A DNA stretch of 64,000 nt from a virus, in IMG/VR virus record IMGVR_UViG_3300033145_001595, positions 38,929-102,928 of that record; one strand, given 5' to 3'. A program made the translations under genes and the position numbers. Every line of letters begins with the position of its first letter. Positions within the stretch are counted from its first letter, which is position 1. Shown here piece after piece: positions 8,884 through 31,095 of this stretch. The notes beneath the pieces were generated by a model. That model made no database searches and was not told the DNA's origin. It was given only the letters and a program-made list of their open reading frames with translations.

Positions 8884-9288
8884 ATGCTTAATGACAGTTA
8901 TGCAGACAGACGTTGTACAGTTCTTTTTTCCCGTGAATGTTTAGCGGAACTTTTGAATCTTCCCCAAGGTGCTATTATTACTAATGTACAATGGGAAGAT
9001 AAGAGAAGAATTTTTATTATGAGTATCGAGAACATTCCCTTTGGTTCCAAACCAGATGACGGAGCACCTGTAGAATTTGATGGAGTTACTGTTGTACATA
9101 CACCACATCATATTGTACATTGGCCTGCACCAGCAGCAACCGTCAACTCTCCAATAGTTCAATTGAGAGATCACCAGAATACAGACCCGTCTAACAATAA
9201 CCAAGCACCTAGTTTATCAGGATTTAATCTTGGCGCGGTATTAGAAATGCAACTACCAACTAACACAGATGAGGAGTCAAATGAGTAA
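8884..9288 (+). CDS. Hypothetical protein
   Basis: AAGGA RBS, in operon context. Confidence 0.6.
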   Translation: MLNDSYADRRCTVLFSRECLAELLNLPQGAIITNVQWEDKRRIFIMSIENIPFGSKPDDGAPVEFDGVTVVHTPHHIVHWPAPAATVNSPIVQLRDHQNTDPSNNNQAPSLSGFNLGAVLEMQLPTNTDEESNE

Positions 9289-10546: not shown

Positions 10547-11521
10547 TTAGTACTCCCCATATGGTGTCCTACTCATTTTGGCAGAATCCAACCTAGGAAA
10601 GACAAACTTCTGCAAAAATTCCATTGACGAGAACTTAGAAATGGATACCATATGTGCCCTCTCCCCCCGAATACCCGGAGAATTTAATATGTCTTTCCAG
10701 TCCTCAGCCCAATGCCTACCGTATCGTTCTTTCAACCCTGCACACCAAAAATTCTCATAAATACTATCATCAAATAAAATCCTAGACGAATACACCCTAT
10801 TAATTACCTCATGCCACTTAGGCGTGCTATGTGGACCAAATCCCTTTATACCATGAAAATGATGGGCTTTTGTATCAACTAATATAGGCACATCTGCAAA
10901 CCAAGCCTTCATACACATAGTAGCATCGCTGTAAGACCAATAGCCGGGCAAATTGGCCCATCCATTAAGGTAATCATACACTGCCTTCTTCATGGTCATA
11001 CCACACGCATACGAGCCATTACGTCGTTGGTAATGAACAGGATGCTTATTCACTGACATGTACCATCGCCATTTACTTGCAGCAAACGTAAATCCACCTC
11101 CATAGTTCGTTCCTCTGACCGGAAGGTCCGGTAGTGGTGTCCAGGGGTCGGTAAGTCTGTGCTGTGTCAATCCAGGTGTTATGATACTGTCTGGATGCTC
11201 ATTAACGGATGCCTCTAATGATTCAAAGAAGCCGGGAGTTGGCCATACATGGGCATCTATGAAACAAATAGTATCTCCAGTACTAAGTTGTGCTCCCATC
11301 CTTCTACAATTTGAAACTCCCCCACGAGTTTCTTTTAATATAGGAAGGAACGTAGGATAACGATCTGCAAAACCTAAAAGAATTTCTCTTGTTTTGTCTG
11401 TTGAACAATCATCTATAATTATTAACTCGTGTGGGGACTCCGGTAAAACATCACATATAGCCTGCATCGACCGGGGAAGCCATTTTGCTTCATTATAAGT
11501 AGGTATGACAATGCTTAACAT
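10547..11521 (-). CDS. GT-A fold glycosyltransferase with DxH motif
   Basis: SIVIPTYNE, IIIDDCSTD, FIDAH, GYWSYSD. Confidence 0.88.
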   Translation of the reverse strand: MLSIVIPTYNEAKWLPRSMQAICDVLPESPHELIIIDDCSTDKTREILLGFADRYPTFLPILKETRGGVSNCRRMGAQLSTGDTICFIDAHVWPTPGFFESLEASVNEHPDSIITPGLTQHRLTDPWTPLPDLPVRGTNYGGGFTFAASKWRWYMSVNKHPVHYQRRNGSYACGMTMKKAVYDYLNGWANLPGYWSYSDATMCMKAWFADVPILVDTKAHHFHGIKGFGPHSTPKWHEVINRVYSSRILFDDSIYENFWCAGLKERYGRHWAEDWKDILNSPGIRGERAHMVSISKFSSMEFLQKFVFPRLDSAKMSRTPYGEY

Positions 11522-12759
11522 TATTCTTCTCCAGTGTAAAACTTAACAATAGTGTTAACAACATATTTAACTTTTTCACGCGGAATAGTAGGCCACATAG
11601 GCAAAGATAAAATTCTTTCGGACATATGATCTGTAATTGCAAATTCATTTGTAATTTCAGTATTATTATTTCTTGTTTTGTACATAGGCATTGTATGTAA
11701 TGGATTAGGATAGTGAACACCTGTATGCACATCATGTTCTTTCAAGTAACTGACAAGTTTATCTCGCTGTTCAGCTAAAATAACAAAATGATGATAAACT
11801 GAATCATAATTTGTATTTGACAAACTATTATATTTAATATGGTCATTGCCAACAAAACTTATTGGTATACGATGTTTAAGAAAATAATGATAATACCATT
11901 GTGCTACCACTTTTCTTTTTAAGTTATTATATGAAAGTTTAGTTAATTTTCTTATTAATACAGCAGCTTGAAATTCATCAAGTCTACTATTATAACCAAG
12001 TAACGTATGTTCATTTTTTGCAGATTGTCCATGATGTTGTAACTGTTTTATTTTTAAAGCAACAAAATCAGCAAAACTAGAAGATTCCACATTGTTTACT
12101 GTAATTACACCACCATCTCCATAACAACCTAAATTCTTTATTGGCCCACAACTAAAACAACCAATGTCCCCAACACTTCCAAGTTTTTGTATTGGTTTGT
12201 TATTACTATTATTAAAATAACACCCACCATGTGCATGAGAACAATCCTCAATTAAAAACAATTTATGATTGTCCGCTATTTCCCGTAAACACGTAACAGG
12301 TTCAATATGATAAGAAGCATTTGAACTTACCCAAGTATAAATATCAGCAGGGATACCATGCATATGAACAACTAAAATAGCTTTTGTTCTCTTTGTTATT
12401 TTACTAATAACTTCTTCCACATTAGGGCCACACGATACCCTATCCACGTCAACTAAAATAGGTGTGGCTCCAACATGATAGATAGCTTCCAGGTCTGCCG
12501 CGAAAGCATTGTCCTGTAGGATTACCTCATCACCAGAACCTATGCCAAGAGCCAGCATTCCAAGGATAAGCGCATCTGTACCGCTTGCAACACCTACGGC
12601 GTATGTGGAACCTATGTACTCTGCAAATCGTGTCTGAAAGGCTGACAGATACGGACCTTTGAGTAGACGACCAGAATTCATTATATTAGTCAAGTCATTA
12701 CTAATTTCATTTTTAATATAATCATCTTCTACTGATAAATCTAATAAAGGCACATACAT
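11521..12759 (-). CDS. DegT/DnrJ/EryC1/StrS PLP-dependent sugar aminotransferase
   Basis: GVASGTDAL, IEDCSHAHG, catalytic Lys in SCGPIKNLGCYGDGG, GYNSRLDEFQAA, LSLPMWP. Confidence 0.93.
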   Translation of the reverse strand: MYVPLLDLSVEDDYIKNEISNDLTNIMNSGRLLKGPYLSAFQTRFAEYIGSTYAVGVASGTDALILGMLALGIGSGDEVILQDNAFAADLEAIYHVGATPILVDVDRVSCGPNVEEVISKITKRTKAILVVHMHGIPADIYTWVSSNASYHIEPVTCLREIADNHKLFLIEDCSHAHGGCYFNNSNNKPIQKLGSVGDIGCFSCGPIKNLGCYGDGGVITVNNVESSSFADFVALKIKQLQHHGQSAKNEHTLLGYNSRLDEFQAAVLIRKLTKLSYNNLKRKVVAQWYYHYFLKHRIPISFVGNDHIKYNSLSNTNYDSVYHHFVILAEQRDKLVSYLKEHDVHTGVHYPNPLHTMPMYKTRNNNTEITNEFAITDHMSERILSLPMWPTIPREKVKYVVNTIVKFYTGEE

Positions 12760-12777
12760 TTTTACACTCTTTTCTAT

Positions 12778-13833
12778 TTATGAATTTATGTCTGTAACAT
12801 TAAAATTCTTACGTTCTAATGCATCACAAACGAGAAAGGTAGCCGGTGCTGCATCTGATATGGAGCATAGTGGTGTGGCATCATGGCGAACACAATCATA
12901 AAAATTCTCATAAATATCTACTGATTCAACAGTTTCTCCAATACTTAAAATAGGAGCTTCACCTTTACTATGAACCTCAATATAATTTTGTGTAACAGTA
13001 ATAGTTTCTCCACCATAACTACGAATTGTAATAGTGGGAGTTCCATTTTTATCCATAACTGTAGAACCAGAATAAACAAATTCTATTTGTTTTCTTTCAG
13101 AAGATATTTGACAACTTATATTTGCTTTATCATCCATTTCTAAGCCAATACAATTTTTCCTTATTTTGTAAAAATAAGCTCGTATATCATCAAAAGAAAA
13201 ACCACCAGAAAGTTCACATACACCAGCAAGCCATAGTCCTAATTGAATCCAATGAATACCTTGATTCATAGTAGAACCATCAAACAAATCCATACCATTA
13301 AAGGCACGCTTACCAAACCATTGAGAATTATCATAATAAGCATTTTCTCTACGACAGGGTACTATTATTTTTATACTTTCTACTGAATCTTGATTTTCAA
13401 AGATATTTTTTTCAATATAAAGTTTAGCAGCCTGTGCTGTTTTATCTCCCATATGATGATACCCAATACATAATTTACTTCCTTCATGTTTACGCATTAC
13501 TTCTTTTATTTTGCATACTCCTACTATATTAGGAGCTAAAGGTTTTTCACAGAAAACAGCAACACCCCTACTAAGAAAATATTTTACTATTTTTTCATTT
13601 AATGCATAAGGTACTGAAACAAAAACAGCTTCAAGTTTGGGATCACTAGGGAAACTAGCAATTTTTTCATAATCATATACTCGCTTTGGTCCATGTATAT
13701 GTCTTTTAGAAGAATCACATACAGAAATAACATTAAAATTCAATGAGTTCTCAAGAGCATTATAATGTGTATGACCCCTCTTGCCCATTCCTATAACTGC
13801 TACATTAACTGGCTTACCATTACTCGTTCCCAT
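12778..13833 (-). CDS. Gfo/Idh/MocA family NAD-dependent oxidoreductase
   Basis: VIGMGKRG, VFCEKPLA, NQGIH. Confidence 0.88.
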   Translation of the reverse strand: MGTSNGKPVNVAVIGMGKRGHTHYNALENSLNFNVISVCDSSKRHIHGPKRVYDYEKIASFPSDPKLEAVFVSVPYALNEKIVKYFLSRGVAVFCEKPLAPNIVGVCKIKEVMRKHEGSKLCIGYHHMGDKTAQAAKLYIEKNIFENQDSVESIKIIVPCRRENAYYDNSQWFGKRAFNGMDLFDGSTMNQGIHWIQLGLWLAGVCELSGGFSFDDIRAYFYKIRKNCIGLEMDDKANISCQISSERKQIEFVYSGSTVMDKNGTPTITIRSYGGETITVTQNYIEVHSKGEAPILSIGETVESVDIYENFYDCVRHDATPLCSISDAAPATFLVCDALERKNFNVTDINS

Positions 13834-13851
13834 CTGTCTGCCCTCTCTATC

Positions 13852-14631
13852 TTATACTGTAAAGTAAGGGGTAACTACGTTCAAGTACATCTCCCAAAGA
13901 AGTTGCTCTACCTCAATATCTACTTTTGTACTATCCCATTGCACTATACCAATTCCAGTTGCCCACGGTCTAAGCTTCCTATCCCATTCATCTATACCTA
14001 TAGTTTTATAAATAATGCCTTGCTTATCAAAAACATTTGTTAACCTACCCCAAGCACGTTTAACAAGCTTCGTTCTACCTACATCGTGAAAGCCAATGAC
14101 ACCACCATCCACAACATATTTACGAAATGCTAAATAATCATGTACAACATGATTAGTTTTATGACACCCATCAATATAAAGAAATTGACACATTCCAAAT
14201 TTAGTTGCTATTATTTGCGCTCGGGGATCAACTGAATTACCAACAAATTGTTCTACATAAATTCCAGATGTCCTCATATAATCTAAAGCTCTATACAAAG
14301 GAGCAGTAGCATGTTTTCTATCACATAAATCTATTGATAAAAAACTACAAGTACGTGTAGGATCAAATAAACTATTAAATGCTAATCCGGTTCCACCACA
14401 GTAAGAACCAATTTCAATAATTTTACAAACCTTATGACCTAAATTTGTTTCAATAATTTCATTTACCATTTGGCATAAACGCACTAATTGACTAGTATCA
14501 TGTCTAATTTCACATTCAAGCTCATCTGCTTTATTTACCATGTCCATAACACGATGTGCTATATCCAAAGAACCATAATCTTTTCTGTTTAATTCACCCC
14601 GTAAATCAAGTGACTCTTTTTGAGTAACCAT
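13852..14631 (-). CDS. Class I SAM methyltransferase (Methyltransf_24-like)
   Basis: IEIGSYCGGT, FLYIDGCH, GGVIGFHD. Confidence 0.85.
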   Translation of the reverse strand: MVTQKESLDLRGELNRKDYGSLDIAHRVMDMVNKADELECEIRHDTSQLVRLCQMVNEIIETNLGHKVCKIIEIGSYCGGTGLAFNSLFDPTRTCSFLSIDLCDRKHATAPLYRALDYMRTSGIYVEQFVGNSVDPRAQIIATKFGMCQFLYIDGCHKTNHVVHDYLAFRKYVVDGGVIGFHDVGRTKLVKRAWGRLTNVFDKQGIIYKTIGIDEWDRKLRPWATGIGIVQWDSTKVDIEVEQLLWEMYLNVVTPYFTV

Positions 14632-15570
14632 TTAACATTCCTTTCCTATTTTTTCAAAATACATTCCAACACGTCCTGTTGAAAGTCGCCTTGTAAACCT
14701 ACCAAACTCTTTATCACGATCTTCTAATTTACTAATAAATTCTAATAATTTCATATAAACTACTTCTAATCTATCCATTGTAAAATCAACATAATTATCT
14801 TCAAGGTACGGTATCAAAGGATACCCATTACCAAAATCTACATTCTTTTCTTTCCAAAGTCGTCCAGCTTTTGCATCAGCTTTACCAGACCGACACAAGT
14901 GTTTTAATCCATCGTAAATTCTATATACATAAGTATATGCATCAAATGGTGGATTTGGATGATGAATAATTTTATTTCTTTTATGGTAATCCATAATAAG
15001 CGGTAATTCAATACTTCTATTACCTACTTTGTAAGGAACACTAGTACCCGCTCTAAAAATCATTTGACCATCATACCTACCAGTGCGTATATCAAGTGGT
15101 TTCCATTTTGGTGATGGAACATACTTTGGATCACGCATCCTCCAAGCAGCTTCATATTTAACACATTCCATATCTTCATTATCAAGTAATTTTCCAACTC
15201 CATATTCAAGATGCCACGGAAGATAAATATCATCATCTTCCCAATGTGCAATAAAGTCTGTTTCAGCATTATCTAACAATGATTGTTTTTTATTACTAAG
15301 TTGTTCGTACTCATCACTATTAACTATTCGTATAGCCTTTTTAGTAGCAACATATTCATATTCGTACTGTGGCTCTCCTACATCATCAGTATAAAGCACA
15401 AGCGGCGTAGGTGCATCATTACCAATGACCAGTGTAGACATTCCGGGATAGCCCTGAGACAAAAACGATGCTATAGCATCTCGTACTTTATCATGTCTAC
15501 CATATGTAGGACAGATACAAGTAACATGAGGCCAGTAGTAATGCTCAAAAAGTCTTTTTTTCAATGGCAT
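14632..15570 (-). CDS. GT2-like glycosyltransferase
   Basis: CICPTYGR, GNDA, HWEDDDIYLPWH. Confidence 0.82.
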   Translation of the reverse strand: MPLKKRLFEHYYWPHVTCICPTYGRHDKVRDAIASFLSQGYPGMSTLVIGNDAPTPLVLYTDDVGEPQYEYEYVATKKAIRIVNSDEYEQLSNKKQSLLDNAETDFIAHWEDDDIYLPWHLEYGVGKLLDNEDMECVKYEAAWRMRDPKYVPSPKWKPLDIRTGRYDGQMIFRAGTSVPYKVGNRSIELPLIMDYHKRNKIIHHPNPPFDAYTYVYRIYDGLKHLCRSGKADAKAGRLWKEKNVDFGNGYPLIPYLEDNYVDFTMDRLEVVYMKLLEFISKLEDRDKEFGRFTRRLSTGRVGMYFEKIGKEC

Positions 15571-15579
15571 ATTATTGTA

Positions 15580-16470
15580 TTACCACTTTTCCAATCCAAG
15601 AGAAAGTTGAATTTTTGTATTTACCCTTGCTGCTACTTCTTCTGGAAGTCTAGCAACATCATATAAAGATTTACCAAACCGTTCAAACATAGGTCGCAAA
15701 TGATAAATTGCCCAATCCTTAAGCATAGAACTTGTCATTACTGGCACTAGATAATTATTCCCAAAATCCTTATTCTTTGCAGAATATAATCTTTGTATTC
15801 GTAAATTAGGAGCATTACTACCAATTTTATGTAAATGTCTTACATCATCATGTCGTCTGTATATGTAACTATACATTTCTTTTGTTACACTACCGGATGG
15901 TGCTAATAACGTTCCTTTTTCCTTGAAAGCATGAGCAACCATTCTTGGTACACGTCGTTCTAAATTTGAATCATATTCTATTTGAGTACCATTAATATAA
16001 ATCATTTGCCCATCAAATCTCTGTCTGTAAAGAGACTCAGCCTTTTCCTCTCCAGGCTTACCACCACAGAACCATGCTACTCGTGGCTTAACACATTCAC
16101 TACCCTCAGTATTAGCATAATGTTCTAAGTAAGGAATCCAAGTACTAAAATGCCAAGGAAGAAATAAATCATCATCATCCCAATGCGCCAATAAATCAGT
16201 ATCAGAAATATCTACTAATTCCTGTCTTTTAGCTCCCAATGTTTTACAACGTTCACCGCGATTGAAAATATTTATTCTTGACCCATCTGACAATTGTATC
16301 GTATTCTCATTACCATAAGAAAGTTTAATTGGAACTTCAGCATCATTAATAATATTCATTTCTTTATGGCCTTCATACTCTTGCAGTATGAAGCAAGCAG
16401 CAGAATCCCGTAGCCGGTGAAACCTACCATACGTCGGGCACATAGCTGTTACTGAATGTAACTTGCTCAT
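15580..16470 (-). CDS. GT2-like glycosyltransferase, paralogue of 14632-15570
   Basis: AMCPTYGR, INDA, HWDDDDLFLPWH. Shares R(F/Y)DGQMI and KNxDFGN with its neighbour. Confidence 0.82.
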   Translation of the reverse strand: MSKLHSVTAMCPTYGRFHRLRDSAACFILQEYEGHKEMNIINDAEVPIKLSYGNENTIQLSDGSRINIFNRGERCKTLGAKRQELVDISDTDLLAHWDDDDLFLPWHFSTWIPYLEHYANTEGSECVKPRVAWFCGGKPGEEKAESLYRQRFDGQMIYINGTQIEYDSNLERRVPRMVAHAFKEKGTLLAPSGSVTKEMYSYIYRRHDDVRHLHKIGSNAPNLRIQRLYSAKNKDFGNNYLVPVMTSSMLKDWAIYHLRPMFERFGKSLYDVARLPEEVAARVNTKIQLSLGLEKW

Positions 16471-17105
16471 GCTGTAAATCCCTTTCTTCTACGGGTAATA
16501 ATTTTTTTTGCAACAAGAACATCATATTCCTTATGCTGTACAAAATGAAAAATCTGTGTTGCCCAACCATTTTTTGATAAAAAGTAATCTATAATTGTTT
16601 GTATGTTATACTGATTCCATAATATACATTTCTTATTCGGGTGGGAAACGCCTACACGCTCACCCTCCTCATAGTTAATACCATTGAAAAAAGAAGCTAT
16701 AATGATTTTAGGATTTATTGCTATTGCCCAATCAAAAAATTCATCAATACTATTCAAATGCTCAACTACAGCAAAAGCACAAACTAAATCTATATTACGA
16801 TTACCTGACATACGGAAAGAACTAATATTTCTAAAATCATTATGAATGAATCTACTATTACAATGAGGCCAAAGTTGATCGCATGTACTTTCTGATTTAC
16901 AAACATCTATGTTTGTATAAGTTCCACCAGTAGGTAACATTTTAGGAATAGGACTATAATTACCACCTACTTCAATTACACGAGAAACATTATTATTACT
17001 AATAACTTCTTTTACAAACTTCCAAGCATCCTTATGCCTTCTAATCATACGAACATATTTTTTACTATCACGGCTCTGCCAATAATCAATTTCTGCTTTT
17101 TCCAT
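16467..17105 (-). CDS. Putative class I SAM methyltransferase
   Basis: VIEVGG, YTNID, DLVCAFAVVEHL. Confidence 0.7.
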   Translation of the reverse strand: MEKAEIDYWQSRDSKKYVRMIRRHKDAWKFVKEVISNNNVSRVIEVGGNYSPIPKMLPTGGTYTNIDVCKSESTCDQLWPHCNSRFIHNDFRNISSFRMSGNRNIDLVCAFAVVEHLNSIDEFFDWAIAINPKIIIASFFNGINYEEGERVGVSHPNKKCILWNQYNIQTIIDYFLSKNGWATQIFHFVQHKEYDVLVAKKIITRRRKGFTA

Positions 17106-17117
17106 GTTGCCCCTTTT

Positions 17118-18491
17118 CTACTTTTCAGCAATAACGGCAAAATCTTTTCCAAGCATGTAACTTTTAACTACATTAAAATTTGCTTTTTCAAAAAGATTCA
17201 AAACATCAGAACAGCATTGCATTGTATGGCAATGATCCCCCTTAAAGCTAATGCCACCCTTAAACTCAATAGGCACAACAATCATAGCGTACCCACCAGA
17301 TTTCAAGACTCGTTTTACCTCTGAGAGCACTTGAACGGGATCATGACAATGCTCAAGATTATGAAATTCAGTAACAGCCCGAAATGTATTATCTTCATAC
17401 CTACTAAGATCATGTGCATCACCCTGTTCAACTGGACGCCCATTATCATAAGCCCACTTAGCAGACCAAGGAGACAACTCAATACCATGAATAGTATTAT
17501 ATTCAAATCCACATTCCATTAAATAATTTAATACATATCCATCCCTAGAACCTATGTCCAATAAAGGAAGATCTTCCCTTTCCAAATAACCTTCCTCGTC
17601 CAAAAACTCTAAGAAACTATTAACATCACGCCTTTGTCTCTTCTTATCAGGATACCAGTCCCTACCCGGCGAACGCTTTGCTTGGTATGCTACATAAGCA
17701 GCTTGTCCACTTGGCTTTGCTAAACCTAAATCAGTATCCAAAGTTAATGCTACTTCGGGCTCTTTCCAAATAGCCTTTCGGAAAAAAATTTCTTCTTGAA
17801 CTACTCTATGTTCTTTCATCCAACTTTTTTCCGAATCCACCTTAACCTGCATTTTTATTAGTTTCAAATTTTCTTCTTGATTACTGGAAAGGCAAAGAAA
17901 TAATTCTTTTTCTTTCACTTCCCCATCAATTCCAATAACTGTACGCATAAATTCTTCTTTGAACAAGGCTTCAAAAGTCATATCTTCAAAATAAGCTGTA
18001 TGAATAAAATAATCATTATGTATTGATCTATAATAAATTGTAGAACGTGCTTCATTAATAAATATGTCAGAAACACTATACACTTTAACACCACTAAAAT
18101 AAGCTTTAAGTCCAATTGCTATACAATCACCATCATACTCAGATTCAGGTAATTGACATGGAGCAAGTTTTTCAACAACATTTTTATTCATAAAAATCAA
18201 TGGTCCAAACGGTGCTTGTACTCGTAAAAACCTGTAAGGCTTACCTTTCCGAGTAGGAAGTGGTTCTTCGGTAAATTCAGTATGAATTAATGTACTTAAA
18301 CTCCAATTAGCATTATTTACTATAGTCTTTGATTCATCATTTGCTAAACGTATAATAGTAGGTACTAAAACATGATCCTGTTCTTTAGCAACAACTATCA
18401 TGGCACTAATAGTATCTAAATCATAAGTACCATTATCAAGATTTTTAACATCACCAGCAATAGCACCCCAATCATAAAATCTAATACCCAT
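17118..18491 (-). CDS. Degenerate GT-like N-terminal region fused to a class I methyltransferase
   Basis: C-terminal LLDIGSRDG, GIELS, QGDAHDL, HNLEH, RVLKSGG. N-terminal IAIGLKAYFSGV resembles the C-terminal part of neighbouring GTs. Confidence 0.75.
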   Translation of the reverse strand: MGIRFYDWGAIAGDVKNLDNGTYDLDTISAMIVVAKEQDHVLVPTIIRLANDESKTIVNNANWSLSTLIHTEFTEEPLPTRKGKPYRFLRVQAPFGPLIFMNKNVVEKLAPCQLPESEYDGDCIAIGLKAYFSGVKVYSVSDIFINEARSTIYYRSIHNDYFIHTAYFEDMTFEALFKEEFMRTVIGIDGEVKEKELFLCLSSNQEENLKLIKMQVKVDSEKSWMKEHRVVQEEIFFRKAIWKEPEVALTLDTDLGLAKPSGQAAYVAYQAKRSPGRDWYPDKKRQRRDVNSFLEFLDEEGYLEREDLPLLDIGSRDGYVLNYLMECGFEYNTIHGIELSPWSAKWAYDNGRPVEQGDAHDLSRYEDNTFRAVTEFHNLEHCHDPVQVLSEVKRVLKSGGYAMIVVPIEFKGGISFKGDHCHTMQCCSDVLNLFEKANFNVVKSYMLGKDFAVIAEK

Positions 18492-18493: not shown

Positions 18494-21400
18494 TTATTTA
18501 CCTTTCGAATCATAATTAATACTCAAAAATTCCATAAAATCCTCTGCATGTGTTCCCCCACCTGCTTTTCCAAGCATAGCAAAGAAATCTCCATCTGTCT
18601 TTCCATAGGCCTCTTTAAGTTTTGTCCAAATAGCACGCGCTTTCTGAACCTCTTCAGACTTCAAAAAAGTATCTATCCTATCATCATAACCATGCTCAAG
18701 AAGATATGGCTTAAAATACTCATAAGCTACATCACCAAAGAACAAATAATGAATAAGATGAGCATTCATTAATGTACCCACATGAGGAACGTCCATAGTA
18801 CCCTTTTTGTACATATGCTCAAAAGTAATATCTCTAGACGCATACATAGGTACTCCTATAATCCAAGCAGCTAAACCTATGTACTGTTCATTGTACGCCC
18901 ACAGTCCAGGTAAGGTAGGCCAGCCCCCAAGTCGATTTAACACCTTTTTGCTCATAACGTAACCAGCCCCAATAATAGCATCACGTCGAATAAAAGGAGT
19001 ATCCGGCTTAGTGGTGATATGAGAATTAAGAATACCCCATTTGGGTTTAAGAGAGAATCGCGCTCCATACGTACGAGCTTCTGACTTCTTAGCATTACCA
19101 AGATTACAAACATTTACTACCACAATACCGTCTTTCTCCTGAGCATGTGCTGCCGCCCATTCAATACCATATTGTGTAATAACCCTCTGGTGACAATCCA
19201 TAACACAGATCATTTCACCACGAGCAACAGAAATAGCCTCTGCCCTACTCCTAGAAACACCAATACGCTCAGTATGCCTAATTATACGAATCCTATCCTG
19301 TATATCTGCCCTCCAATGTCCGGCAAGCTTTGGACGAATATTGTCTGCAATATTATCCGGGATGCTTCCATCGGTAGAGGCATCATCAACAAGAATAATT
19401 TCAAACCTAGTTTGTCCACTATTGATAATGGATCGTAATGTTAATTCGACTTCTTTACCCTCATTATAGGCAGTAAGAATAACAGAAATCGGTAGTACCT
19501 TTTTAATAGACTGATTATGCTCTCCACAGGTTTCAGTAGGTACTCGCAGAACATCACGGAAGAATTCAGCATCAGAATGAATTCTACCTTTCTGCCAATG
19601 GCCCGTCTCGTAAAGTTTACCTGCCTTCATAGCTTCTAAAGTACTGCGGTGTTCGGGACTTATTTGATTTATGTAATGAGGTTCCCAAACATTTTCATAT
19701 GTTTCCCGATCAAACAAAGCAAGATGGGAAGCAAGATGGTTTAGATTCAAGTCACTTGTTGGAGGATAACCCCAAGGCGGCTCTTTACTACCCTTTGCAG
19801 CTTCAGACCTATAAAGATGCCGCACAGTGTACTTGGGGAAACAATAGCATTCAACTCCATGTAACCATGCCCACGAATTCAATGCCGATTCTTCATAACC
19901 CCATTTGCCATTGATAGACGGCCAACGTGTAAGATCATCAAAAATCTCACGAGGCACAAAATAACAAGCTCCTAAAACACCCGTTGTTAATTCTGGATCA
20001 GTACCTTTAGTTCTATAATAAGAACATCCAATTTTACCATCCCTATGATAATTAAGTTTTGCCCCCCAACCTTGAGGACCACCAAACATTGCAGCTACTC
20101 CGGGACAGGCGATAGCGTGCTTTTCTAAGACGAACCCACCTATCTCATGCCACATTCCCTTTGGATAGCGCATATGAGCATCTGAGCTAACTACTACCCG
20201 ACCACGCGCGGCTGCAAAGCCAATGTTTCTTGCCATGCCAGCACCAACAGATTTTTTCAATGTGATTACTATAACATAGGCATTATTAGTATTATACTTG
20301 TTCAAACCCTCACATGACCCATCTGTAGACGCATCATCCACTACGATTACCTCCAACGGGCCTGTAGTGGCCGCTATGGCACTTTCAACAGTCTTAGCAA
20401 CCTCTTCCCCCTCATTCATAGAAGCATACACCACAGACACCATAAAATCAGATTTCATAGTAGTAAATGACTCATCTGTATGTGGCGGGGGTGCTACACC
20501 GGGGAGCACGCCGAAGGGATGGGTTTTCCTATCCTTAACACGTTCTTCTGCGGTTGGAAGGGGTCCAACTTTTTCCACTGTATTTGTTTTTACTATTTCC
20601 TTTTTTGGAGTTAGTCGCATGTTTACTGGTTGCTCCTGTTCTATACCATTATTAAGTAATCGAGTTACCTCAGAAAATACTATTCTACTTATTTGACAAA
20701 AATCTTCATACGGTGTAATAGTCGTAATTTTTTTACCCGTTGTTGGGTCTGTGCTAATAACAATTCTATTACCACACATAAGATCAACAAAACATGGACA
20801 ATTACATGTTGGGGCACATTCACAATCTTGACATTGAGCATTAGTAGGGAAAGGTGTAATTTTATCATAAATAGTAGTAGCTGGATTATTTAGTTCTGCT
20901 ACATTAACACCATTTTTTAAGTCACCAATTTTATAAAAGTTTCTTCCATCTATAGCTGCTTTATAGCACCCAAAAATATCACCAGATGCATTTACGGCAC
21001 ACCTACTACTTGCTACACCACAACTACCACAATTATTACCCTTTTTACATATCTCTGCACCCTTATATGTAAATGTGTACGATCCATTCAGAAAACTAAG
21101 GCGCTTGCCCTTTAATGAACTACTATTAAGAAAAGAATCAGCACACTCACGTATTTGCAAATCTAACGTAGAATAAAACTCAGACGGCCATTCTGGCTCA
21201 ATACATATGAATTCCACTTCTACCAAATCTGTAAAACTAAGTAAATGCAAAGCACTTTTTGCCATATCAACAATAGTAGCTTGGGTAACAACCATCTTAA
21301 TAGTAGGATGCAACCCAAGCAAACGCATATCTTTCAATGCAGAATGTGCAACACCAAACTTTACACCATTCTTATGCACTGAATTTATTGATTCATCCCC

Positions 21401-21862
21401 ATCTACATGAGCTTCTACAATAATATTATGTTCTTTAAGAAATGCAATCTTTTCCCCATCCATATTCTGCAAATTAGTTTTTACTGTTATCTCTGCATCA
21501 AGGTCTAAAACATTACTAATATTACGAGCAGTAGATAAAAGAAAAGAAGTAACTGTAAAATTCAACAAAGGTTCTTGACCAAGAAAATTTATCTTAATCT
21601 TCCTCTTCTCTTTTTTAATAAGAACTATATTATCTTTTTCCTTTTTCTCCTCTTCCTTTTCTTCCACAATCTTTTCCGCAGCTACAGAAGCTATATGCAT
21701 ATTCAAAAACCACGTAATAGCATTAGCAAAATTAGTTTGAATCTTCTCTGCGGATGCCGGAGCATTGTCTGGCCCGCTCTTGTTCGTACAGTAATCACAC
21801 GTCAAGTTACAACCCCATTGAAAAACTAAATCCAGTTCTGTAGGTAAAAACCTATCAACCAT
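18494..21862 (-). CDS. Radical SAM-SPASM domain fused to two tandem GT-A glycosyltransferase domains
   Basis: CNLTCDYC, GQEPLL, SPASM Cys clusters CGVAS...GDIFGC and CQDCECAPTCNCPC, then two GT domains (VVDDASTDGS...SDAH; LVDDASTDGS...MDCH). GGAG RBS before the ATG at 21862. Confidence 0.88.
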   Translation of the reverse strand: MVDRFLPTELDLVFQWGCNLTCDYCTNKSGPDNAPASAEKIQTNFANAITWFLNMHIASVAAEKIVEEKEEEKKEKDNIVLIKKEKRKIKINFLGQEPLLNFTVTSFLLSTARNISNVLDLDAEITVKTNLQNMDGEKIAFLKEHNIIVEAHVDGDESINSVHKNGVKFGVAHSALKDMRLLGLHPTIKMVVTQATIVDMAKSALHLLSFTDLVEVEFICIEPEWPSEFYSTLDLQIRECADSFLNSSSLKGKRLSFLNGSYTFTYKGAEICKKGNNCGSCGVASSRCAVNASGDIFGCYKAAIDGRNFYKIGDLKNGVNVAELNNPATTIYDKITPFPTNAQCQDCECAPTCNCPCFVDLMCGNRIVISTDPTTGKKITTITPYEDFCQISRIVFSEVTRLLNNGIEQEQPVNMRLTPKKEIVKTNTVEKVGPLPTAEERVKDRKTHPFGVLPGVAPPPHTDESFTTMKSDFMVSVVYASMNEGEEVAKTVESAIAATTGPLEVIVVDDASTDGSCEGLNKYNTNNAYVIVITLKKSVGAGMARNIGFAAARGRVVVSSDAHMRYPKGMWHEIGGFVLEKHAIACPGVAAMFGGPQGWGAKLNYHRDGKIGCSYYRTKGTDPELTTGVLGACYFVPREIFDDLTRWPSINGKWGYEESALNSWAWLHGVECYCFPKYTVRHLYRSEAAKGSKEPPWGYPPTSDLNLNHLASHLALFDRETYENVWEPHYINQISPEHRSTLEAMKAGKLYETGHWQKGRIHSDAEFFRDVLRVPTETCGEHNQSIKKVLPISVILTAYNEGKEVELTLRSIINSGQTRFEIILVDDASTDGSIPDNIADNIRPKLAGHWRADIQDRIRIIRHTERIGVSRSRAEAISVARGEMICVMDCHQRVITQYGIEWAAAHAQEKDGIVVVNVCNLGNAKKSEARTYGARFSLKPKWGILNSHITTKPDTPFIRRDAIIGAGYVMSKKVLNRLGGWPTLPGLWAYNEQYIGLAAWIIGVPMYASRDITFEHMYKKGTMDVPHVGTLMNAHLIHYLFFGDVAYEYFKPYLLEHGYDDRIDTFLKSEEVQKARAIWTKLKEAYGKTDGDFFAMLGKAGGGTHAEDFMEFLSINYDSKGK

Positions 21863-21897: not shown

Positions 21898-22272
21898 CTA
21901 CTCTATTACACACCTAGCTCTAACATAAAAGCGACAAAGAAAATTGCAACTACGGGCAGAAAGCTCATATCCATATCTAGCTGGATGTTTACACCGAAAT
22001 CGCCTAGAACAACACAGTCCTGTTTCCTCAGCATCTTTACACATTCCAGCAGTGGATGCAATGGTATCATGGATATTTGGTCTTTTTGATAGGTAGTTGT
22101 CATTGTTTATAGGCAGACCGTAAGGACAGTCAAAATCTACATTAACTATGTCAGAAAAAATCTTACACTTTTCTTCACGCCATAATCTCATTTGACGACA
22201 AACATGAACAGCTTTTTTGCCCTTACATATTTGAGCACAAACTTCCTCACGAAATAATCTTATTCTTCTCAT
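21898..22272 (-). CDS. Small cysteine-rich basic protein
   Basis: 124 aa with about 12 Cys, between the tail-tip genes and the rSAM fusion. Confidence 0.6.
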   Translation of the reverse strand: MRRIRLFREEVCAQICKGKKAVHVCRQMRLWREEKCKIFSDIVNVDFDCPYGLPINNDNYLSKRPNIHDTIASTAGMCKDAEETGLCCSRRFRCKHPARYGYELSARSCNFLCRFYVRARCVIE

Positions 22273-28577: not shown

Positions 28578-28964
28578 TTAAGCTACCGTAGTGGTAACAC
28601 CAGCGATGTTCAAATAACCAGAACCCTGGAATGAGAACACTACCGACGCAACACCATCTACAGTAACACTTAATGAAACAGAAGTAATAAGAATTGCTCC
28701 AGTGTACAAAACACCAGCAGTCGCAAAGAACTCTGCTGCTGCCGCTGGTTTTCCTGGATGGGAAATCTTTGTCGTGTTATCAAGTCTACACTCATACTGA
28801 CCAGACCATGTTCTAAGACCGCCAATATATTCTCGATACCCATTACCTGCAAACGTAGTCACTTCTAAGGCATCTGCGGCGTAATCAATAGACCAACTGA
28901 AAACACCAGTTTTATAACCAGAGGCGAATGTAACATTTCCACCTTTTCCACTTATTGCCGCCAT
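28578..28964 (-). CDS. Tail tube protein paralogue 1 (short)
   Basis: MAAISGKGG...WSIDYAADALEVT...YIGGLRTWSG...FSFQGSG, a lambda/TP901-like tube pattern. Confidence 0.8.
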   Translation of the reverse strand: MAAISGKGGNVTFASGYKTGVFSWSIDYAADALEVTTFAGNGYREYIGGLRTWSGQYECRLDNTTKISHPGKPAAAAEFFATAGVLYTGAILITSVSLSVTVDGVASVVFSFQGSGYLNIAGVTTTVA

Positions 28965-28986
28965 ATTGTACTCCTTTCACTTATAT

Positions 28987-29697
28987 TTATGGTTCTGTAC
29001 TAGTACTACTTGTTGAGCTACTTGTTGAGCTACTTGTTGAACTACTGGACGAGCTACTAGACGAGCTACTACTACTAGATGAACTACTCGTTGTCGTACT
29101 CGTTGTCGTGCTCGTTGACGTGCTGCTGGACGTACTAGATGAACTACTAGACGAACTACTACTAGTAGGTGAACTACTTGAACTAGACGAGCTACTTGAA
29201 CTAGTAGGTGAACTACTTGAACTAGACGAGCTACTTGAACTAGTAGGTGAACTACTTGAACTAGACGTACTACTTGACGAACTAGTAGTTGAACTGGTAG
29301 TAGATGACGAACTAGTAGTAGTTGTCACTACACCGGCTATAGTAATATGACCAGAACCTTGAAAAGAGAACGTTGCGGCTGAAAGCCCGTCAACAGGAGT
29401 ACTTAAAGAAATAGAGGTAATAATAATACTACCACTATAAGAAATGCCAGTAACCGCAAGAAATGTTGCAGCCGCCGCATCATGGCCCGGATGTAAAACT
29501 TTTACTGTGTTATCAAGTCTACACTCGTACTGACCAGACCAAGCTTTTAATCCAGGAATATAATTTCTATAACCACCATCCGCGAAATCTGTTGATTCCA
29601 AGGCATCGGCCACATAGTCAATCGACCAACTGTATACATTTGTGGTGTATCCAGAGACGAAAGTAACATTTCCATTCTTTCCACTTATTGCTGCCAT
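28987..29697 (-). CDS. Tail tube protein paralogue 2 with ~110-aa Ser/Thr tail
   Basis: Same tube domain followed by a poly-Ser/Thr tract ending STSTEP. Confidence 0.8.
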   Translation of the reverse strand: MAAISGKNGNVTFVSGYTTNVYSWSIDYVADALESTDFADGGYRNYIPGLKAWSGQYECRLDNTVKVLHPGHDAAAATFLAVTGISYSGSIIITSISLSTPVDGLSAATFSFQGSGHITIAGVVTTTTSSSSTTSSTTSSSSSTSSSSSSPTSSSSSSSSSSSPTSSSSSSSSSSSPTSSSSSSSSSSTSSSTSTSTTTSTTTSSSSSSSSSSSSSSSSSTSSSTSSSTSSTSTEP

Positions 29698-29718
29698 ATG
29701 TTTTAGCTCCTATTTAAT

Positions 29719-31095
29719 CTACGATATTGTAACTGTTGCGGGACACGTAGTGCAATCCCCTGAGTCCAAAGAATATATGCCATCTGGACAATCACTATCT
29801 CCCCATGCTTCCATTTTCCAAACACATGATTCACCCAATGATCCAACTGTAAGAGTCCAATAACCACTAACACAATCAAGATCAGCATCACATGAGTCAT
29901 TACCACCAGTTCCCGCCCAATCACAACCAAACGTCCTATTCAATGTATATGAACCAGTACAATCTGCTATTCCACAATCTATAGTTCCTGTCAATGTAAA
30001 CGAGTACGATTCATTACAACCATCACACGTACCGGACGGGCAAGTAGGGGGCATTGGGGTTGTTGACGATGTTGACGATGTAGATGAACTACTTGAACTA
30101 CTCGTTGGGGAACTACTGGTACTGGATGAACTACTTGAACTTGAAGGTGAACTACTAGTACTGGATGAACTACTTGAACTCGTTGGAGAACTACTTGAAC
30201 TGGACGAACTAGTAGGAGAGCTACTAGAACTACTACTTGTGGGTGAACTACTAGTAGATGTTGAAGAACTTGGTGTAGAATTTGAACTGGATGATGATGG
30301 ACTAGAAGATGTGGACGAACTGCTTGAACTGCTCGTTGGAGAACTACTTGAACTGGATGAACTGCTACTACTCGTTGGAGAGCTACTTGAACTGGATGAA
30401 CTACTAGTACTCGTTGTACTGCTCGTTGTACTAGTGGATGAACTCGTACTTGATGAACTTGACGTGGTTGAAGTGGAACTACTGCTGGACGAACTCGTTG
30501 GTGAACTACTTGAACTAGACGAACTTGAAGGTGTACTACTAGAACTACTTGAACTCGAAGCAGAACTAGACGAACTACTACTACTTGACGAACTCGTTGG
30601 AGAACTACTAGTAGAGGACGATGAACTAGTAGTAGTAGTTGTCATACCAGTTACAAATGGACATGGCACTCCAATTGCATAATACACCCCATCTGGATAT
30701 ATGCCCTCTTCCCCTGGTTGAACTACTCCACCTGTAATGCGCAAATGCCCTGTACCAGTAAATGCAAACACAACATTGCAAACACCATCCACAGGAACAC
30801 CCAAAGACATATTAGTAATAATTGCACTACCTTCATATGCTGCTCCCGCTTCTGCCTCTAACATTATATCAGCAGCAACCCTACCGGGCGGTCCTACCAA
30901 TGCTATATTATCTAATCTACATAAAAATTGACCAGTAAATGATTTTAGACCGGGAATGTGGTACTTATAACTATTCGATACCCAATTAGTAGTTTCTAAT
31001 GCATCGGCGTTGTATTCCATACTCCATTCATGCACACCAGTTGTATAACCTGTTGTGAATATGACTCTTCCAGTTTTTCCAGATATAGTTGCCAT
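29719..31095 (-). CDS. Tail tube protein paralogue 3 with ~195-aa Ser/Thr/Pro tract and Cys-rich C-terminal domain
   Basis: Tube domain, SSSSPT repeats, then a domain of about 105 aa with about 12 Cys. Confidence 0.8.
   Translation of the reverse strand: MATISGKTGRVIFTTGYTTGVHEWSMEYNADALETTNWVSNSYKYHIPGLKSFTGQFLCRLDNIALVGPPGRVAADIMLEAEAGAAYEGSAIITNMSLGVPVDGVCNVVFAFTGTGHLRITGGVVQPGEEGIYPDGVYYAIGVPCPFVTGMTTTTTSSSSSTSSSPTSSSSSSSSSSSASSSSSSSSTPSSSSSSSSSPTSSSSSSSTSTTSSSSSTSSSTSTTSSTTSTSSSSSSSSSPTSSSSSSSSSSSPTSSSSSSSTSSSPSSSSSNSTPSSSTSTSSSPTSSSSSSSPTSSSSSSSSPTSSSSSSSTSSSPSSSSSSSSTSSSPTSSSSSSSTSSTSSTTPMPPTCPSGTCDGCNESYSFTLTGTIDCGIADCTGSYTLNRTFGCDWAGTGGNDSCDADLDCVSGYWTLTVGSLGESCVWKMEAWGDSDCPDGIYSLDSGDCTTCPATVTIS

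What the first reader, a model, noticed from the sequence alone, without database searches (positions are those of the whole stretch)
18494..21862. Radical SAM-SPASM enzyme fused to two tandem glycosyltransferases
Seen: one uninterrupted ORF of about 1120 aa has CxxxCxxC, a GQEP variant of GGEP, a full SPASM Cys set, a Pro/Lys linker and two GT-A domains. Known: SPASM radical SAM enzymes mostly modify peptides or proteins (thioether crosslinks, formylglycine, epimerisation). Inference: a combined protein-maturation enzyme for virion proteins. I do not recognise this architecture, particularly in a phage late operon.
Basis: partly seen in the sequence, partly recalled or inferred. Interest (0 to 1): 0.8.

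Follow-up and report, generated by a model that had tools for sequence, protein, structure and literature searches.

The report
Phage radical-SAM plus double glycosyltransferase enzyme
An uncultured phage encodes, right after its tail genes, one 1122-residue protein joining a peptide-crosslinking-type radical SAM enzyme to two mucin-type sugar transferases; it probably decorates the phage's own serine/threonine-rich tail and head proteins, a combination not described in the literature.

Summary
Window 18494-21862 (minus strand) is one 1122-aa gene with three parts: a radical SAM/SPASM domain (C18/C22/C25, GQEP, full 7-Cys SPASM), a partly conserved linker, and two GT-A domains.

It is not an assembly chimera. 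Independent metagenome contigs carry the same fusion. Two diverged contigs carry the same parts as translationally overlapping genes.

The family is tiny: about 8 proteins among 5.8 billion, none in 185,579 prokaryote species genomes. Two remote variants exist (rSAM-GT; rSAM-GT-methyltransferase).

Both GT domains resemble polypeptide GalNAc-transferases (GT27) over the whole catalytic domain, including DxH and the third His. The radical SAM part is an orphan branch nearest the peptide/protein maturases CteB, PapB and anSME, and has no RRE.

The gene heads a conserved soluble glycan cassette. Four virion-module proteins carry 64-195-residue Ser/Thr tracts.

Best reading: a late-expressed virion-protein maturation enzyme. 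O-glycosylation is moderately supported. The radical SAM substrate is unknown; candidates are the upstream Cys-rich protein, which is fused in frame in one relative, and the Cys-rich tip of a tail-tube paralogue.

The scan has noted other phage rSAM-GT fusions on other DNA. I found no publication.

The parts
18494..21862 (-). Whole gene: 1122-aa radical SAM/SPASM - GT-A - GT-A fusion
   Evidence: ORF list, translation and RBS. Identical protein P0002 on the 102,928-bp virus record.
20648..21862 (-). Radical SAM core plus SPASM domain (residues 1-405); no N-terminal RRE
   Evidence: AF2 model pLDDT 83. Foldseek top hits are CteB at 5e-16 and anSME at 4e-14. NCBIfam PapB scores 89 bits.
21788..21811 (-). 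CX3CX2C radical SAM cluster motif (C18, C22, C25; CNLTCDYC)
   Evidence: The cysteines are nearly invariant in the 72-sequence alignment.
21569..21580 (-). GQEP, a variant of the GGE SAM-binding motif
   Evidence: Relatives have GGEP; P0008 has GGNP.
21587..21700 (-). Stretch holding the KE-rich insertion that is unique to this phage's copy
   Evidence: Gap in all homologues. Modelled as a long surface helix at lower pLDDT.
20684..21031 (-). SPASM auxiliary-cluster cysteine set (residues 278-393)
   Evidence: C281, C299, C344, C347, C353, C357 and C389 are invariant in the family and invariant or nearly so among 72 relatives.
20456..20647 (-). Linker (residues 406-469); its second half is a conserved AERVKDRK..HPFGV..PPP..TDE.FTT motif kept even in GT-GT-only forms
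   Evidence: Alignments A1 and A3.
19523..20455 (-). GT-A domain 1 (residues 470-780): DDAS 509-512, DAH 561-563, WGYEE 654-658, H682. Mean column identity across relatives is 83%.
18563..19498 (-). GT-A domain 2 (residues 789-1100): DDAS 826-829, DCH 889-891, WAYNEQ 988-993, E1015-H1016
   Evidence: The profile aligns to GalNAc-T1 residues 31-263, including DxH, the WGGEN region and GHVFRK.
21898..22272 (-). Upstream 124-aa basic Cys-rich protein (12 Cys): candidate substrate or accessory module
   Evidence: 50-53% identical to a module of L003, with 11 of 12 Cys kept. In L003/P0174 it is in frame with the enzyme with no stop between.
10547..18491 (-). Rest of the co-directional glycan cassette: GT-like+MT, MT, two GT2-like paralogues, Methyltransf_24, Gfo/Idh/MocA oxidoreductase, DegT aminotransferase, GT2 with DxH
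   Evidence: Pfam. Synteny in L003, L004, L006 and L007. No TM helices.
28987..31095 (-). Tail-tube paralogues 2 and 3, with 110- and 195-residue Ser/Thr(/Pro) tracts; paralogue 3 ends in a Cys-rich domain. These are candidate acceptors.
34271..35245 (-). Head-module protein with a 64-residue C-terminal Ser/Thr tract: candidate acceptor

Best explanation
This is a genuine late-operon phage gene for a three-module, soluble, cytoplasmic protein-maturation enzyme. It is the first gene of a self-contained glycan-building cassette.

Shown:
- The domain content.
- The conservation of the fusion and of the whole cassette across independent contigs.
- The GT27-like catalytic signature in both GT-A domains.
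- The maturase-type SPASM fold without an RRE.
- Long Ser/Thr tracts on four virion-module proteins.

Inferred:
- The two GT domains start and extend O-linked glycans on those Ser/Thr tracts during particle assembly.
- Donors would include a phage-made 3-amino sugar and possibly a 4-epimerised HexNAc. The neighbouring methyltransferases and GT2s would then elaborate the glycan.
- The radical SAM/SPASM module abstracts a hydrogen from a protein substrate handled by the same complex. The most likely chemistry is a Cys-derived thioether crosslink, which gives a redox-independent staple for a protein folded in the cytoplasm.
- Candidate substrates are the adjacent 124-aa Cys-rich protein and the Cys-rich tip of tail-tube paralogue 3.

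My odds:
- Real tri-domain gene: 0.97.
- Virion-protein O-glycosylation by the GT domains: about 0.6.
- Radical SAM module acts on a protein rather than on a sugar: about 0.55.
- Specifically a thioether on a Cys-rich protein: about 0.35.
For: Fusion and cassette:
- The fusion is present in L003, L004, L006 and P0008 at 45-52% identity.
- The same parts are adjacent, with an identical 8-nt overlap junction, in L005 and L007. These two contigs are only 75-78% identical in DNA.
- The whole cassette is syntenic in four loci.

GT domains:
- The best solved relatives by sequence are GalNAc-T12, T7, T2 and T1.
- The domain-2 profile aligns across GalNAc-T1 residues 31-263 with DxH, the WGGEN region and the His of GHVFRK matched.
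- Foldseek gives per-domain matches to GalNAc-T2, T10 and T12 at E about 1e-14.
- DxH, the His and the W..E motifs are invariant in the family.

Radical SAM domain:
- All 72 nearest relatives match the peptide-maturase SPASM families nif11 and PapB at E<=1e-10, and 71 also match QhpD and SCIFF.
- Foldseek ranks CteB, anSME, ChlB, SuiB and TigE first. The sugar-acting DesII and BlsE come about nine orders of magnitude weaker.

Acceptors and context:
- Ser/Thr tracts of 110, 195, 64 and 126 residues sit on two tail-tube paralogues, a head-module protein and a further protein of unknown role beside that module.
- Cassette proteins have no TM helices.
- No thymidylate-synthase homologue is present.

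Precedents:
- Mycobacteriophage capsid and tail-tube C-termini are glycosylated by phage GTs, with an O-methyltransferase encoded upstream of the three GT genes (as cited in PMC12619734 and PMC11600133).
- The SPASM enzyme CrpC crosslinks the adjacent Cys-rich protein CrpA (PMC13692751).
Against: - There is no biochemical or proteomic evidence; the host is unknown.
- GT-A similarity to GT27 is remote (E 1e-6 to 1e-8, 16-20% identity). There is no lectin domain. Tandem GT-A polymerases (K4CP, heparosan synthase) also match.
- The GT-GT model has only moderate confidence (pLDDT 68).
- The radical SAM module scores far below every curated family cut-off (89 against 340 bits for PapB). It has GQE instead of GGE and a unique insertion.
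- It is 26-33% identical among relatives, while GT-GT is 62-70% identical.
- It has lost the canonical motif and invariant residues in P0008.
- The Cys-rich protein has no repeated CxxD/CxxxD-type motif.
- The Cys-rich protein is absent from L004.
- It is fused to the enzyme in L003, which suits a domain at least as well as a substrate.
- Whether relatives also have Ser/Thr-tract virion proteins could not be checked, because the contigs are short.
Confidence: 0.45

Rival explanations
1. The radical SAM/SPASM module tailors the sugar, not the protein. It would epimerise, oxidise, decarboxylate or C-modify a nucleotide sugar or the nascent protein-linked glycan. It would be fused to the GTs because it works on their donor or product.
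For: - The fusion partner and every neighbour are glycan enzymes.
- Remote relatives pair the same radical SAM type with a GT and a Methyltransf_24 (P0093) or with a single GT (P0177), with no Cys-rich module demonstrably attached.
- There is no RRE.
- L004 lacks the Cys-rich gene.
- The identity of the radical SAM part among relatives (26-33%) is like that of the sugar enzymes Gfo/Idh/MocA (27-30%) and DegT (37-43%) in the same loci.
- DesII and BlsE, which act on sugars, are still significant fold matches.
Against: - The nearest profiles and folds are all peptide or protein maturases with a full 7-Cys SPASM. The known sugar-acting enzymes rank far lower.
- A Cys-rich module is adjacent here and fused in L003.
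Confidence: 0.25
2. The GT-GT pair is a K4CP/heparosan-synthase-like bifunctional polymerase. It would make a free or host-surface polysaccharide (for example capsule mimicry or superinfection exclusion), not a protein glycan.
For: - Foldseek's top whole-length match is the two-domain chondroitin polymerase K4CP, at 1.5e-16.
- The domain-1 profile's best sequence hits are heparosan synthase B and K4CP.
Against: - Those matches cover only the nucleotide-binding half (profile positions 6-98). GalNAc-T matches span the whole catalytic domain.
- TM-scores to K4CP are 0.26-0.30 with rmsd about 20 Å.
- Both domains use DxH plus a downstream His, the metal set aligned with GalNAc-T1. That this set is the GT27 hallmark, and that the polymerases use DxD, is from my own knowledge and was not tested.
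- The cassette has no membrane protein, flippase, polymerase or lipid-carrier transferase.
- It is co-oriented with virion genes that carry Ser/Thr tracts.
Confidence: 0.12
3. In this phage the radical SAM module is catalytically inert or vestigial. It would serve as a docking or scaffold domain for the GT-GT enzyme.
For: - In P0008 the cluster motif spacing changes to CX3CX1C and GGE becomes GGN.
- P0008 also loses the otherwise invariant N130 while keeping all SPASM Cys.
- The window's copy has GQE and a KE-rich insertion.
- The Pfam score lies at the cut-off.
Against: - The window's copy keeps C18, C22 and C25 with the aromatic residue before the last Cys.
- It keeps E97, P98, N130, D154, G155 and all SPASM cysteines.
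- It folds confidently as a radical SAM barrel plus SPASM.
- L003, L004 and L007 keep canonical motifs.
Confidence: 0.1
4. The cassette glycosylates phage DNA (hypermodified bases) rather than proteins.
For: Phages do carry multi-GT clusters with sugar-tailoring enzymes for DNA hypermodification (PMC13326640; Pyle et al. 2024 as cited in PMC12619734).
Against: - The 84%-complete genome has no thymidylate-synthase/hydroxymethylase homologue.
- The cluster lies in the virion operon, not the nucleotide-metabolism region.
- The GT domains resemble polypeptide GalNAc-transferases.
- Ser/Thr tracts are present on virion proteins.
Confidence: 0.05
5. The fusion is an assembly or frameshift artefact.
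For: It is a single metagenomic record.
Against: - The same fusion occurs in at least four other contigs from other assemblies, at 45-52% identity, colinear through the junction.
- Remote fusions P0177 and P0093 have the same domain order.
Confidence: 0.02

Closest known systems
CteB (PDB 5WGG/5WHY) and PapB: SCIFF/ranthipeptide thioether maturases
   Same: Best solved structure by sequence (8e-5) and by fold (5e-16, TM 0.65). Best NCBIfam profile is PapB at 89 bits. Shares CX3CX2C plus a 7-Cys SPASM that would hold two auxiliary clusters.
   Different: Only 16-17% identical. Far below the family cut-off of 340 bits. No N-terminal RRE. No short leader-core precursor nearby. Fused to two glycosyltransferases. 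Encoded by a phage.
CrpC/CrpA of Methanococcus voltae (PMC13692751)
   Same: A SPASM radical SAM enzyme next to a Cys-rich protein of more than 100 aa, which it crosslinks (ranthionine). This is the precedent for a protein substrate rather than a peptide substrate.
   Different: CrpC has an RRE. CrpA has a 17-residue Cys motif repeated 10 times, with CxxQ/D. The 124-aa protein here has no such repeat. Family TIGR04463 is not the best match for the window's domain.
Polypeptide GalNAc-transferases (CAZy GT27; e.g. GalNAc-T1 1XHB, T2 2FFU, T12 6PXU)
   Same: GT-A fold. DxH, a downstream His and a W-G/A-x-E-like motif all align. Per-domain Foldseek E is about 1e-14. The likely acceptors are mucin-like Ser/Thr tracts.
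   Different: 16-20% identity. No ricin-type lectin domain and no membrane anchor. Two catalytic domains in tandem. Bacterial-virus origin. Donor and acceptor are untested.
K4CP chondroitin polymerase / heparosan synthases (tandem GT-A, GT2)
   Same: Two GT-A domains in one chain. Top whole-length Foldseek hit. Sequence similarity in the nucleotide-binding halves.
   Different: Low TM (0.26-0.30). Here both domains have DxH where, from my own knowledge (not tested), these polymerases use DxD. Similarity does not extend to the acceptor half. Nothing in the cassette exports a polymer.
Mycobacteriophage virion glycosylation (Freeman et al. 2023, known to me only through PMC12619734 and PMC11600133; the paper itself was not held)
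   Same: Phage-encoded GTs, with an O-methyltransferase gene upstream of three tandem GT genes. They glycosylate the C-termini of capsid and tail-tube subunits.
   Different: No radical SAM enzyme, amino-sugar pathway or mucin-length Ser/Thr tracts are mentioned in the two citing papers. The GTs are separate genes.
anSME (PDB 4K36-4K39)
   Same: Second-best fold match at 4e-14. A SPASM enzyme that acts on a folded-protein substrate (Cys/Ser to formylglycine).
   Different: The genome has no sulfatase. The curated anSME models are not met.

Membership tests
Radical SAM superfamily | CX3CX2C motif with an aromatic residue before the third Cys | tested here: met
   C18-N-L-T-C22-D-Y-C25. The cysteines are nearly invariant in 72 relatives.
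Radical SAM superfamily | GGE SAM-binding motif and partial TIM-barrel fold | tested here: met
   GQEP variant, with G95, E97 and P98 kept. AF2 pLDDT 83 with alternating beta/alpha elements. Foldseek probability 1.00 to radical SAM structures.
Radical SAM superfamily | Reductive cleavage of SAM by a bound [4Fe-4S] cluster | not testable with these tools
   Needs anaerobic reconstitution and a 5'-deoxyadenosine assay.
SPASM subfamily | Seven-Cys motif CX9-15GX4C - gap - CX2CX5CX3C - gap - C | tested here: met
   C288..G294..C299; C344-x2-C347-x5-C353-x3-C357; C389. The set is conserved in the family and in relatives.
PapB / CteB thioether (ranthipeptide, sactipeptide) maturases | Score above the curated family cut-off | tested here: not met
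   PapB 89.4 bits against a cut-off of 340. SCIFF about 33 against 425.
PapB / CteB thioether (ranthipeptide, sactipeptide) maturases | N-terminal RRE (in CteB) and an adjacent short precursor with a leader and a Cys/acceptor motif | tested here: not met
   The cluster motif starts at residue 18, and the model has no wHTH domain. The neighbour is a 124-aa protein without a repeated CxxxD-type motif.
CrpC-like protein-crosslinking SPASM enzymes (TIGR04463) | Adjacent Cys-rich protein substrate of 100 aa or more | tested here: inconclusive
   An adjacent Cys-rich protein exists, and 11 of its 12 Cys are conserved in L003. It is fused to the enzyme in L003 and absent from L004. There is no repeat motif.
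anSME | Sulfatase substrate with a C/S-x-P/A-x-R motif in the genome | tested here: not met
   No PF00884 match in G000; the record is 84% complete.
GT27 polypeptide GalNAc-transferases | GT-A fold with a DxH metal motif | tested here: met
   D561-A-H563 and D889-C-H891 are invariant in the family. They align to LDAH of GalNAc-T1 and to LDCH of GalNAc-T12.
GT27 polypeptide GalNAc-transferases | Third metal ligand His (GHVFRK region) and the Gal/GalNAc-T motif (WGGEN) | tested here: met
   Domain 2: EHMYKK aligns to GHVFRK, and LWAY.EQ aligns to IWGGENLE. Domain 1: RHLYRS (H682) and WGYEE are invariant, and the alignment range to GalNAc-T1 covers them, but that alignment was not printed. The glycines of the motif are only partly kept.
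GT27 polypeptide GalNAc-transferases | C-terminal ricin-type lectin domain and type II membrane anchor | tested here: not met
   No such Pfam match. No TM segment.
GT27 polypeptide GalNAc-transferases | UDP-GalNAc donor and Ser/Thr acceptor | not testable with these tools
   Indirect only: Ser/Thr tracts on virion proteins and an NAD epimerase/dehydratase at 43637-44614.
Tandem GT-A glycosaminoglycan polymerases (K4CP, PmHS) | Two GT-A domains, each with DxD, that polymerise a disaccharide repeat | tested here: inconclusive
   Tandem GT-A is met. At the position where these polymerases have DxD (from my own knowledge, not tested), both domains here have DxH. Sequence similarity is limited to the nucleotide-binding half, and TM is 0.26-0.30. 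Activity is untested.

The most novel reading that the evidence does not exclude
The radical SAM/SPASM and GT27-like modules act together on the same virion proteins. The phage would chemically staple Cys-rich domains with thioethers and coat 100-200-residue Ser/Thr stalks with a methylated amino-sugar glycan. The result would be a crosslinked mucin-like brush on its tail tube and head, assembled entirely in the bacterial cytoplasm by one enzyme complex. A bolder form is that the radical step creates the acceptor or a non-O-glycosidic sugar-protein link.
Probability: 0.3. Interest if true: 0.9.

Novelty: new variant of a known kind. Interest (0 to 1): 0.68.

Why it matters
If the reading holds, it joins two chemistries that have been studied apart: RiPP-type radical SAM crosslinking and mucin-type O-glycosylation. 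Both would sit in one phage enzyme aimed at structural proteins.

It would extend virion glycosylation, so far shown in mycobacteriophages, to another phage lineage, with far longer acceptor tracts and a phage-made amino sugar.

It would give radical SAM enzymologists a protein-scale substrate system with a built-in genetic read-out, namely virion stability, adsorption or immune recognition.

It would add a bacterial-virus branch to the ppGalNAc-T-like enzymes.

The natural fused, split and degenerate forms are a ready-made series for asking why the modules are coupled.

Tried and rejected
- Complex prediction of the radical SAM domain (with 3 [4Fe-4S] clusters and SAM) against the 124-aa Cys-rich protein gave no verdict (score 0.00). 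This is no evidence either way.
The contexts of P0008 (92.7-kb contig), P0174 (52-kb contig), P0093 and P0177 could therefore not be read.
- Viral contigs held no relative. Genome contigs returned only generic GT2 matches. The phage collection gave two weak partial hits.
- The Atlas gave nothing usable for the Cys-rich protein (its own model has pLDDT 0.37) or for the tube-3 tip.
- The Cys-rich N-terminus of the remote homologue P0176 looked similar by eye (a CPDT motif), but BLAST found no significant similarity (E 0.37). I dropped it.
- I first read the lower conservation of the radical SAM part as substrate co-evolution. I withdrew that, because the sugar enzymes Gfo/Idh/MocA and DegT are equally diverged. 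The outlier is the very high conservation of GT-GT.
- Promoter and terminator scans were at chance level.
- The Freeman et al. 2023 paper is not held.
- The portal is only about 26% identical to known phages, so there is no host inference.


Full report
**1. The observation**

The minus strand is open from 21913 to 18494. The ATG at 21862 follows an aggag box and lies 35 nt after the stop of the upstream gene. This gives a protein of 1122 aa.

Pfam finds Radical_SAM at 29.2 bits on the protein against a cut-off of 29.5; the genome search gives 32.2 bits. Fer4_12 scores above its cut-off. Two Glycos_transf_2 domains score 1e-42 together. NCBIfam's best radical SAM model is the PapB ranthipeptide maturase at 4e-24.

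- CNLTCDYC at residues 18-25.
- GQEP at residues 95-98.
- SPASM cysteines C288..G294..C299, C344-x2-C347-x5-C353-x3-C357 and C389.

I also saw a KE-rich insertion (about residues 58-90) that no relative has. The second half of the "linker" (residues 436-468) is a conserved motif. It stays with the GT module even where the radical SAM part is a separate gene.

**2. The fusion is real, and it is rare**

The window belongs to a 102,928-bp virus record estimated at 84% complete.

A word-indexed search of 5.8 billion proteins returned seven relatives besides the protein itself:
- Full-length fusions at 45-52% identity: P0003, P0007 and P0008.
- Truncated ones: P0004 and P0006.
- Two GT-GT-only proteins: P0005 and P0009.

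Five metagenome contigs (L003-L007) carry the gene. None was found in 2.9 million viral contigs, in GenBank phages or in one genome each of 185,579 prokaryote species.

In L005 and L007 the radical SAM/SPASM part and the GT-GT part are separate genes. They overlap by 8 nt at an identical junction, yet the two contigs are only 75-78% identical in DNA. The split is therefore an inherited state, not a sequencing error.

An exhaustive HMMER search with residues 1-425 against 1.84 billion representatives gave only 5 proteins (the query's own among them) at E<=1e-10. Two remote colinear fusions appear further out:
- P0177 (763 aa) has radical SAM/SPASM plus one GT of the domain-1 type. It is 30% identical overall, with E 2e-91.
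- P0093 (899 aa) has radical SAM/SPASM plus a DxH GT plus Methyltransf_24.

The coupling of this radical SAM type to this GT type is therefore older than the phage family and recurs in several formats.

**3. The radical SAM/SPASM module**

A 72-row alignment gave an AF2 model with pLDDT 83 and pTM 0.84. Foldseek against the PDB ranks the following:
- CteB, 5e-16, TM about 0.65.
- anSME, 4e-14.
- ChlB, SuiB, TigE and SkfB.
- The sugar-acting DesII and BlsE, near 5e-7.

CteB is also the only solved structure found by sequence.

All 72 nearest relatives hit the nif11 and PapB models at E<=1e-10, and 71 also hit QhpD and SCIFF. The window's domain hits PapB (89 bits) and nif11 (69 bits), both far below their cut-offs. 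It is therefore an orphan branch among peptide/protein-modifying SPASM enzymes and a member of no curated family.

It has no RRE; the cluster motif starts at residue 18.

Within the family the SPASM cysteines are invariant. P0008, however, has CX3CX1C and GGN, and has lost the otherwise invariant N130. The radical chemistry therefore seems dispensable in at least one lineage. The window's own copy keeps every residue that could be checked, apart from G96Q.

Standalone SPASM enzymes are common but uncharacterised in phages.

**4. The GT-GT module**

This is the conserved core: 62-70% identity across relatives, and 83% mean column identity in domain 1.

By sequence, the solved relatives of both domains include GalNAc-T12, T7, T2 and T1, and also K4CP and heparosan synthase B. 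The polymerase hits stop after the nucleotide-binding half (profile positions 6-98). The GalNAc-T hits run through the catalytic domain.

For domain 2 the printed alignment to GalNAc-T1 residues 31-263 superposes DxH on LDAH, LWAY.EQ on IWGGENLE and EHMYKK on GHVFRK. Domain 1 has DAH, WGYEE and RHLYRS at the equivalent, invariant places.

That DxH plus the downstream His form the Mn2+ site of GT27 enzymes is my own knowledge of that family.

The AF2 model is moderate overall (pLDDT 68), though the cores are above 80. Foldseek gives K4CP first over the whole length, but with TM 0.26-0.30 and rmsd about 20 Å. It gives GalNAc-T2, T10 and T12 per domain at about 1e-14 with rmsd 4.6-6.8 Å.

There is no lectin domain and no membrane anchor.

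**5. Context**

The window is a phage virion operon on the minus strand. It contains portal, minor head protein, major head protein, adaptor and tape measure, followed by distal tail proteins. The order then continues:
- The 124-aa Cys-rich protein.
- The target gene.
- A GT-like plus methyltransferase protein.
- A methyltransferase.
- Two GT2-like paralogues.
- Methyltransf_24.
- A Gfo/Idh/MocA oxidoreductase.
- A DegT aminotransferase.
- A third DxH GT2.

The whole set is syntenic in L003, L004, L006 and L007. From established knowledge of the WbpB/WbpE and GnnA/GnnB pairs, the oxidoreductase/aminotransferase pair is the usual route to a 3-amino sugar.

No cassette protein has a TM helix. 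The genome has no thymidylate-synthase homologue and no sulfatase.

Following a lead from earlier notes of this scan, I checked the structural proteins:
- Three tail-tube paralogues share an N-terminal fold. Two of them end in Ser/Thr(/Pro) tracts of 110 and 195 residues, and the longest is capped by a 15-Cys domain.
- A head-module protein ends in a 64-residue tract.
- A 572-aa protein holds 126 residues of such tracts.

These are the obvious acceptors for GT27-like enzymes. They parallel the C-terminal glycosylation of capsid and tail-tube subunits in mycobacteriophages (as described in PMC12619734 and PMC11600133).

**6. The Cys-rich neighbour**

The 124-aa protein is basic (net charge +10) and has 12 Cys. 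Eleven of these are kept in the 50%-identical module of L003. It has no family, no Atlas hit and no confident fold.

In L003 the module lies in the same frame as the enzyme with no stop between them. The frame opens 2 nt after the preceding gene. Other gene callers record the 1293-aa product, P0174, on a 52-kb contig. L004 has no homologue on either side of its intact gene.

This pattern ties the module to the enzyme but does not say how. It could be a substrate, as CrpA is for CrpC (PMC13692751). It could be a self-modified appendage or an accessory metal-binding domain.

**7. Mechanism**

I commit to a late-expressed cytoplasmic virion-protein maturation complex. The GT27-like domains would O-glycosylate the Ser/Thr tracts, and the rest of the cassette would build and methylate the glycan. 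The radical SAM/SPASM module would modify a protein substrate, most likely forming Cys-derived thioethers.

Shown and inferred steps, and the odds, are set out under Best explanation. The main rival is that the radical SAM module tailors the sugar (0.25). Lesser rivals are a polymerase function for GT-GT (0.12), a vestigial radical SAM domain (0.10), DNA glycosylation (0.05) and an artefact (0.02).

**8. Novelty**

Full-text searches for SPASM/radical SAM together with glycosyltransferase in phages or RiPPs found no description of such a fusion. Only gene-cluster co-occurrence has been reported (PMC10352776).

Notes of this scan report other phage radical SAM-GT fusions (GT9, GT2) on other genomes. 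The theme recurs in the scan, but I did not test those reports.

Each module belongs to a known superfamily, and no new chemistry is demonstrated. I therefore rate this a new variant of a known kind, with high interest if the coupled crosslinking-glycosylation reading is confirmed.

Noticed in passing
window 28578-31095 (-): Three tandem tail-tube paralogues of 128, 236 and 458 aa share an N-terminal fold. The second adds a 110-residue Ser/Thr tract. The third adds 195 residues of Ser/Thr/Pro plus a C-terminal domain with about 15 Cys.
   Followed up: partly
window 46299-48017 (-): A 572-aa ORF has two Ser/Thr tracts. Its last 110 or so residues are QVVVV/HLQV repeats that look like the Ser/Thr-coding repeat read in another frame. 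This may be an indel in the repeat or a frame ambiguity in the assembly.
   Followed up: no
window 43637-45486 (-): An NAD-dependent epimerase/dehydratase (Pfam 3e-39) sits next to a multi-TM protein inside the head/packaging block. It could supply a 4-epimerised HexNAc donor for the GT27-like enzymes.
   Followed up: no
window 5175-7667 (+): A large terminase subunit carries a LAGLIDADG (intein-like) insertion. It is encoded on the opposite strand, far from the portal.
   Followed up: no
window 485-1330 (+): A second, small (281 aa) radical-SAM-like ORF with a CPNACPFC motif. Its Pfam score is 23 bits, below the cut-off. It lies beside SbcCD-like nuclease genes.
   Followed up: partly
window 17118-18491 (-): The N-terminal half is homologous (28-32%) to the C-terminal half of GT-A domain 2 of the target. 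The C-terminal half is a class I methyltransferase. It may be a GT-derived glycan-binding module fused to an O-methyltransferase.
   Followed up: no
L003 835-4716 (= P0174, 1293 aa): The Cys-rich module, plus an extra half-repeat with a CPDTCPYG motif, is in frame with the radical SAM-GT-GT gene with no stop. NCBI's call (P0003) starts at the internal Met.
   Followed up: partly
L005 1-420 and L007 931-1350: The split form is conserved. The radical SAM gene ends ...GEPVE-stop, and the GT-GT gene starts at a TTG inside GTTGAGTAAGTT, giving an 8-nt overlap. The junction is identical in two contigs that are 75-78% identical in DNA.
   Followed up: yes
P0093 (899 aa), P0177 (763 aa), metagenome proteins: Remote colinear fusions of the same radical SAM/SPASM type with a DxH GT-A: one adds Methyltransf_24, the other has a single GT of the domain-1 type. 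Their contigs are 3-8 kb and their contexts are unknown.
   Followed up: partly
window 9269-10174 (+): A 301-aa ORF convergent on the cassette has motifs that I read by eye as alkaline-phosphatase-superfamily-like (LDACRYDYL, ADHGEALGE). Pfam found nothing.
   Followed up: no
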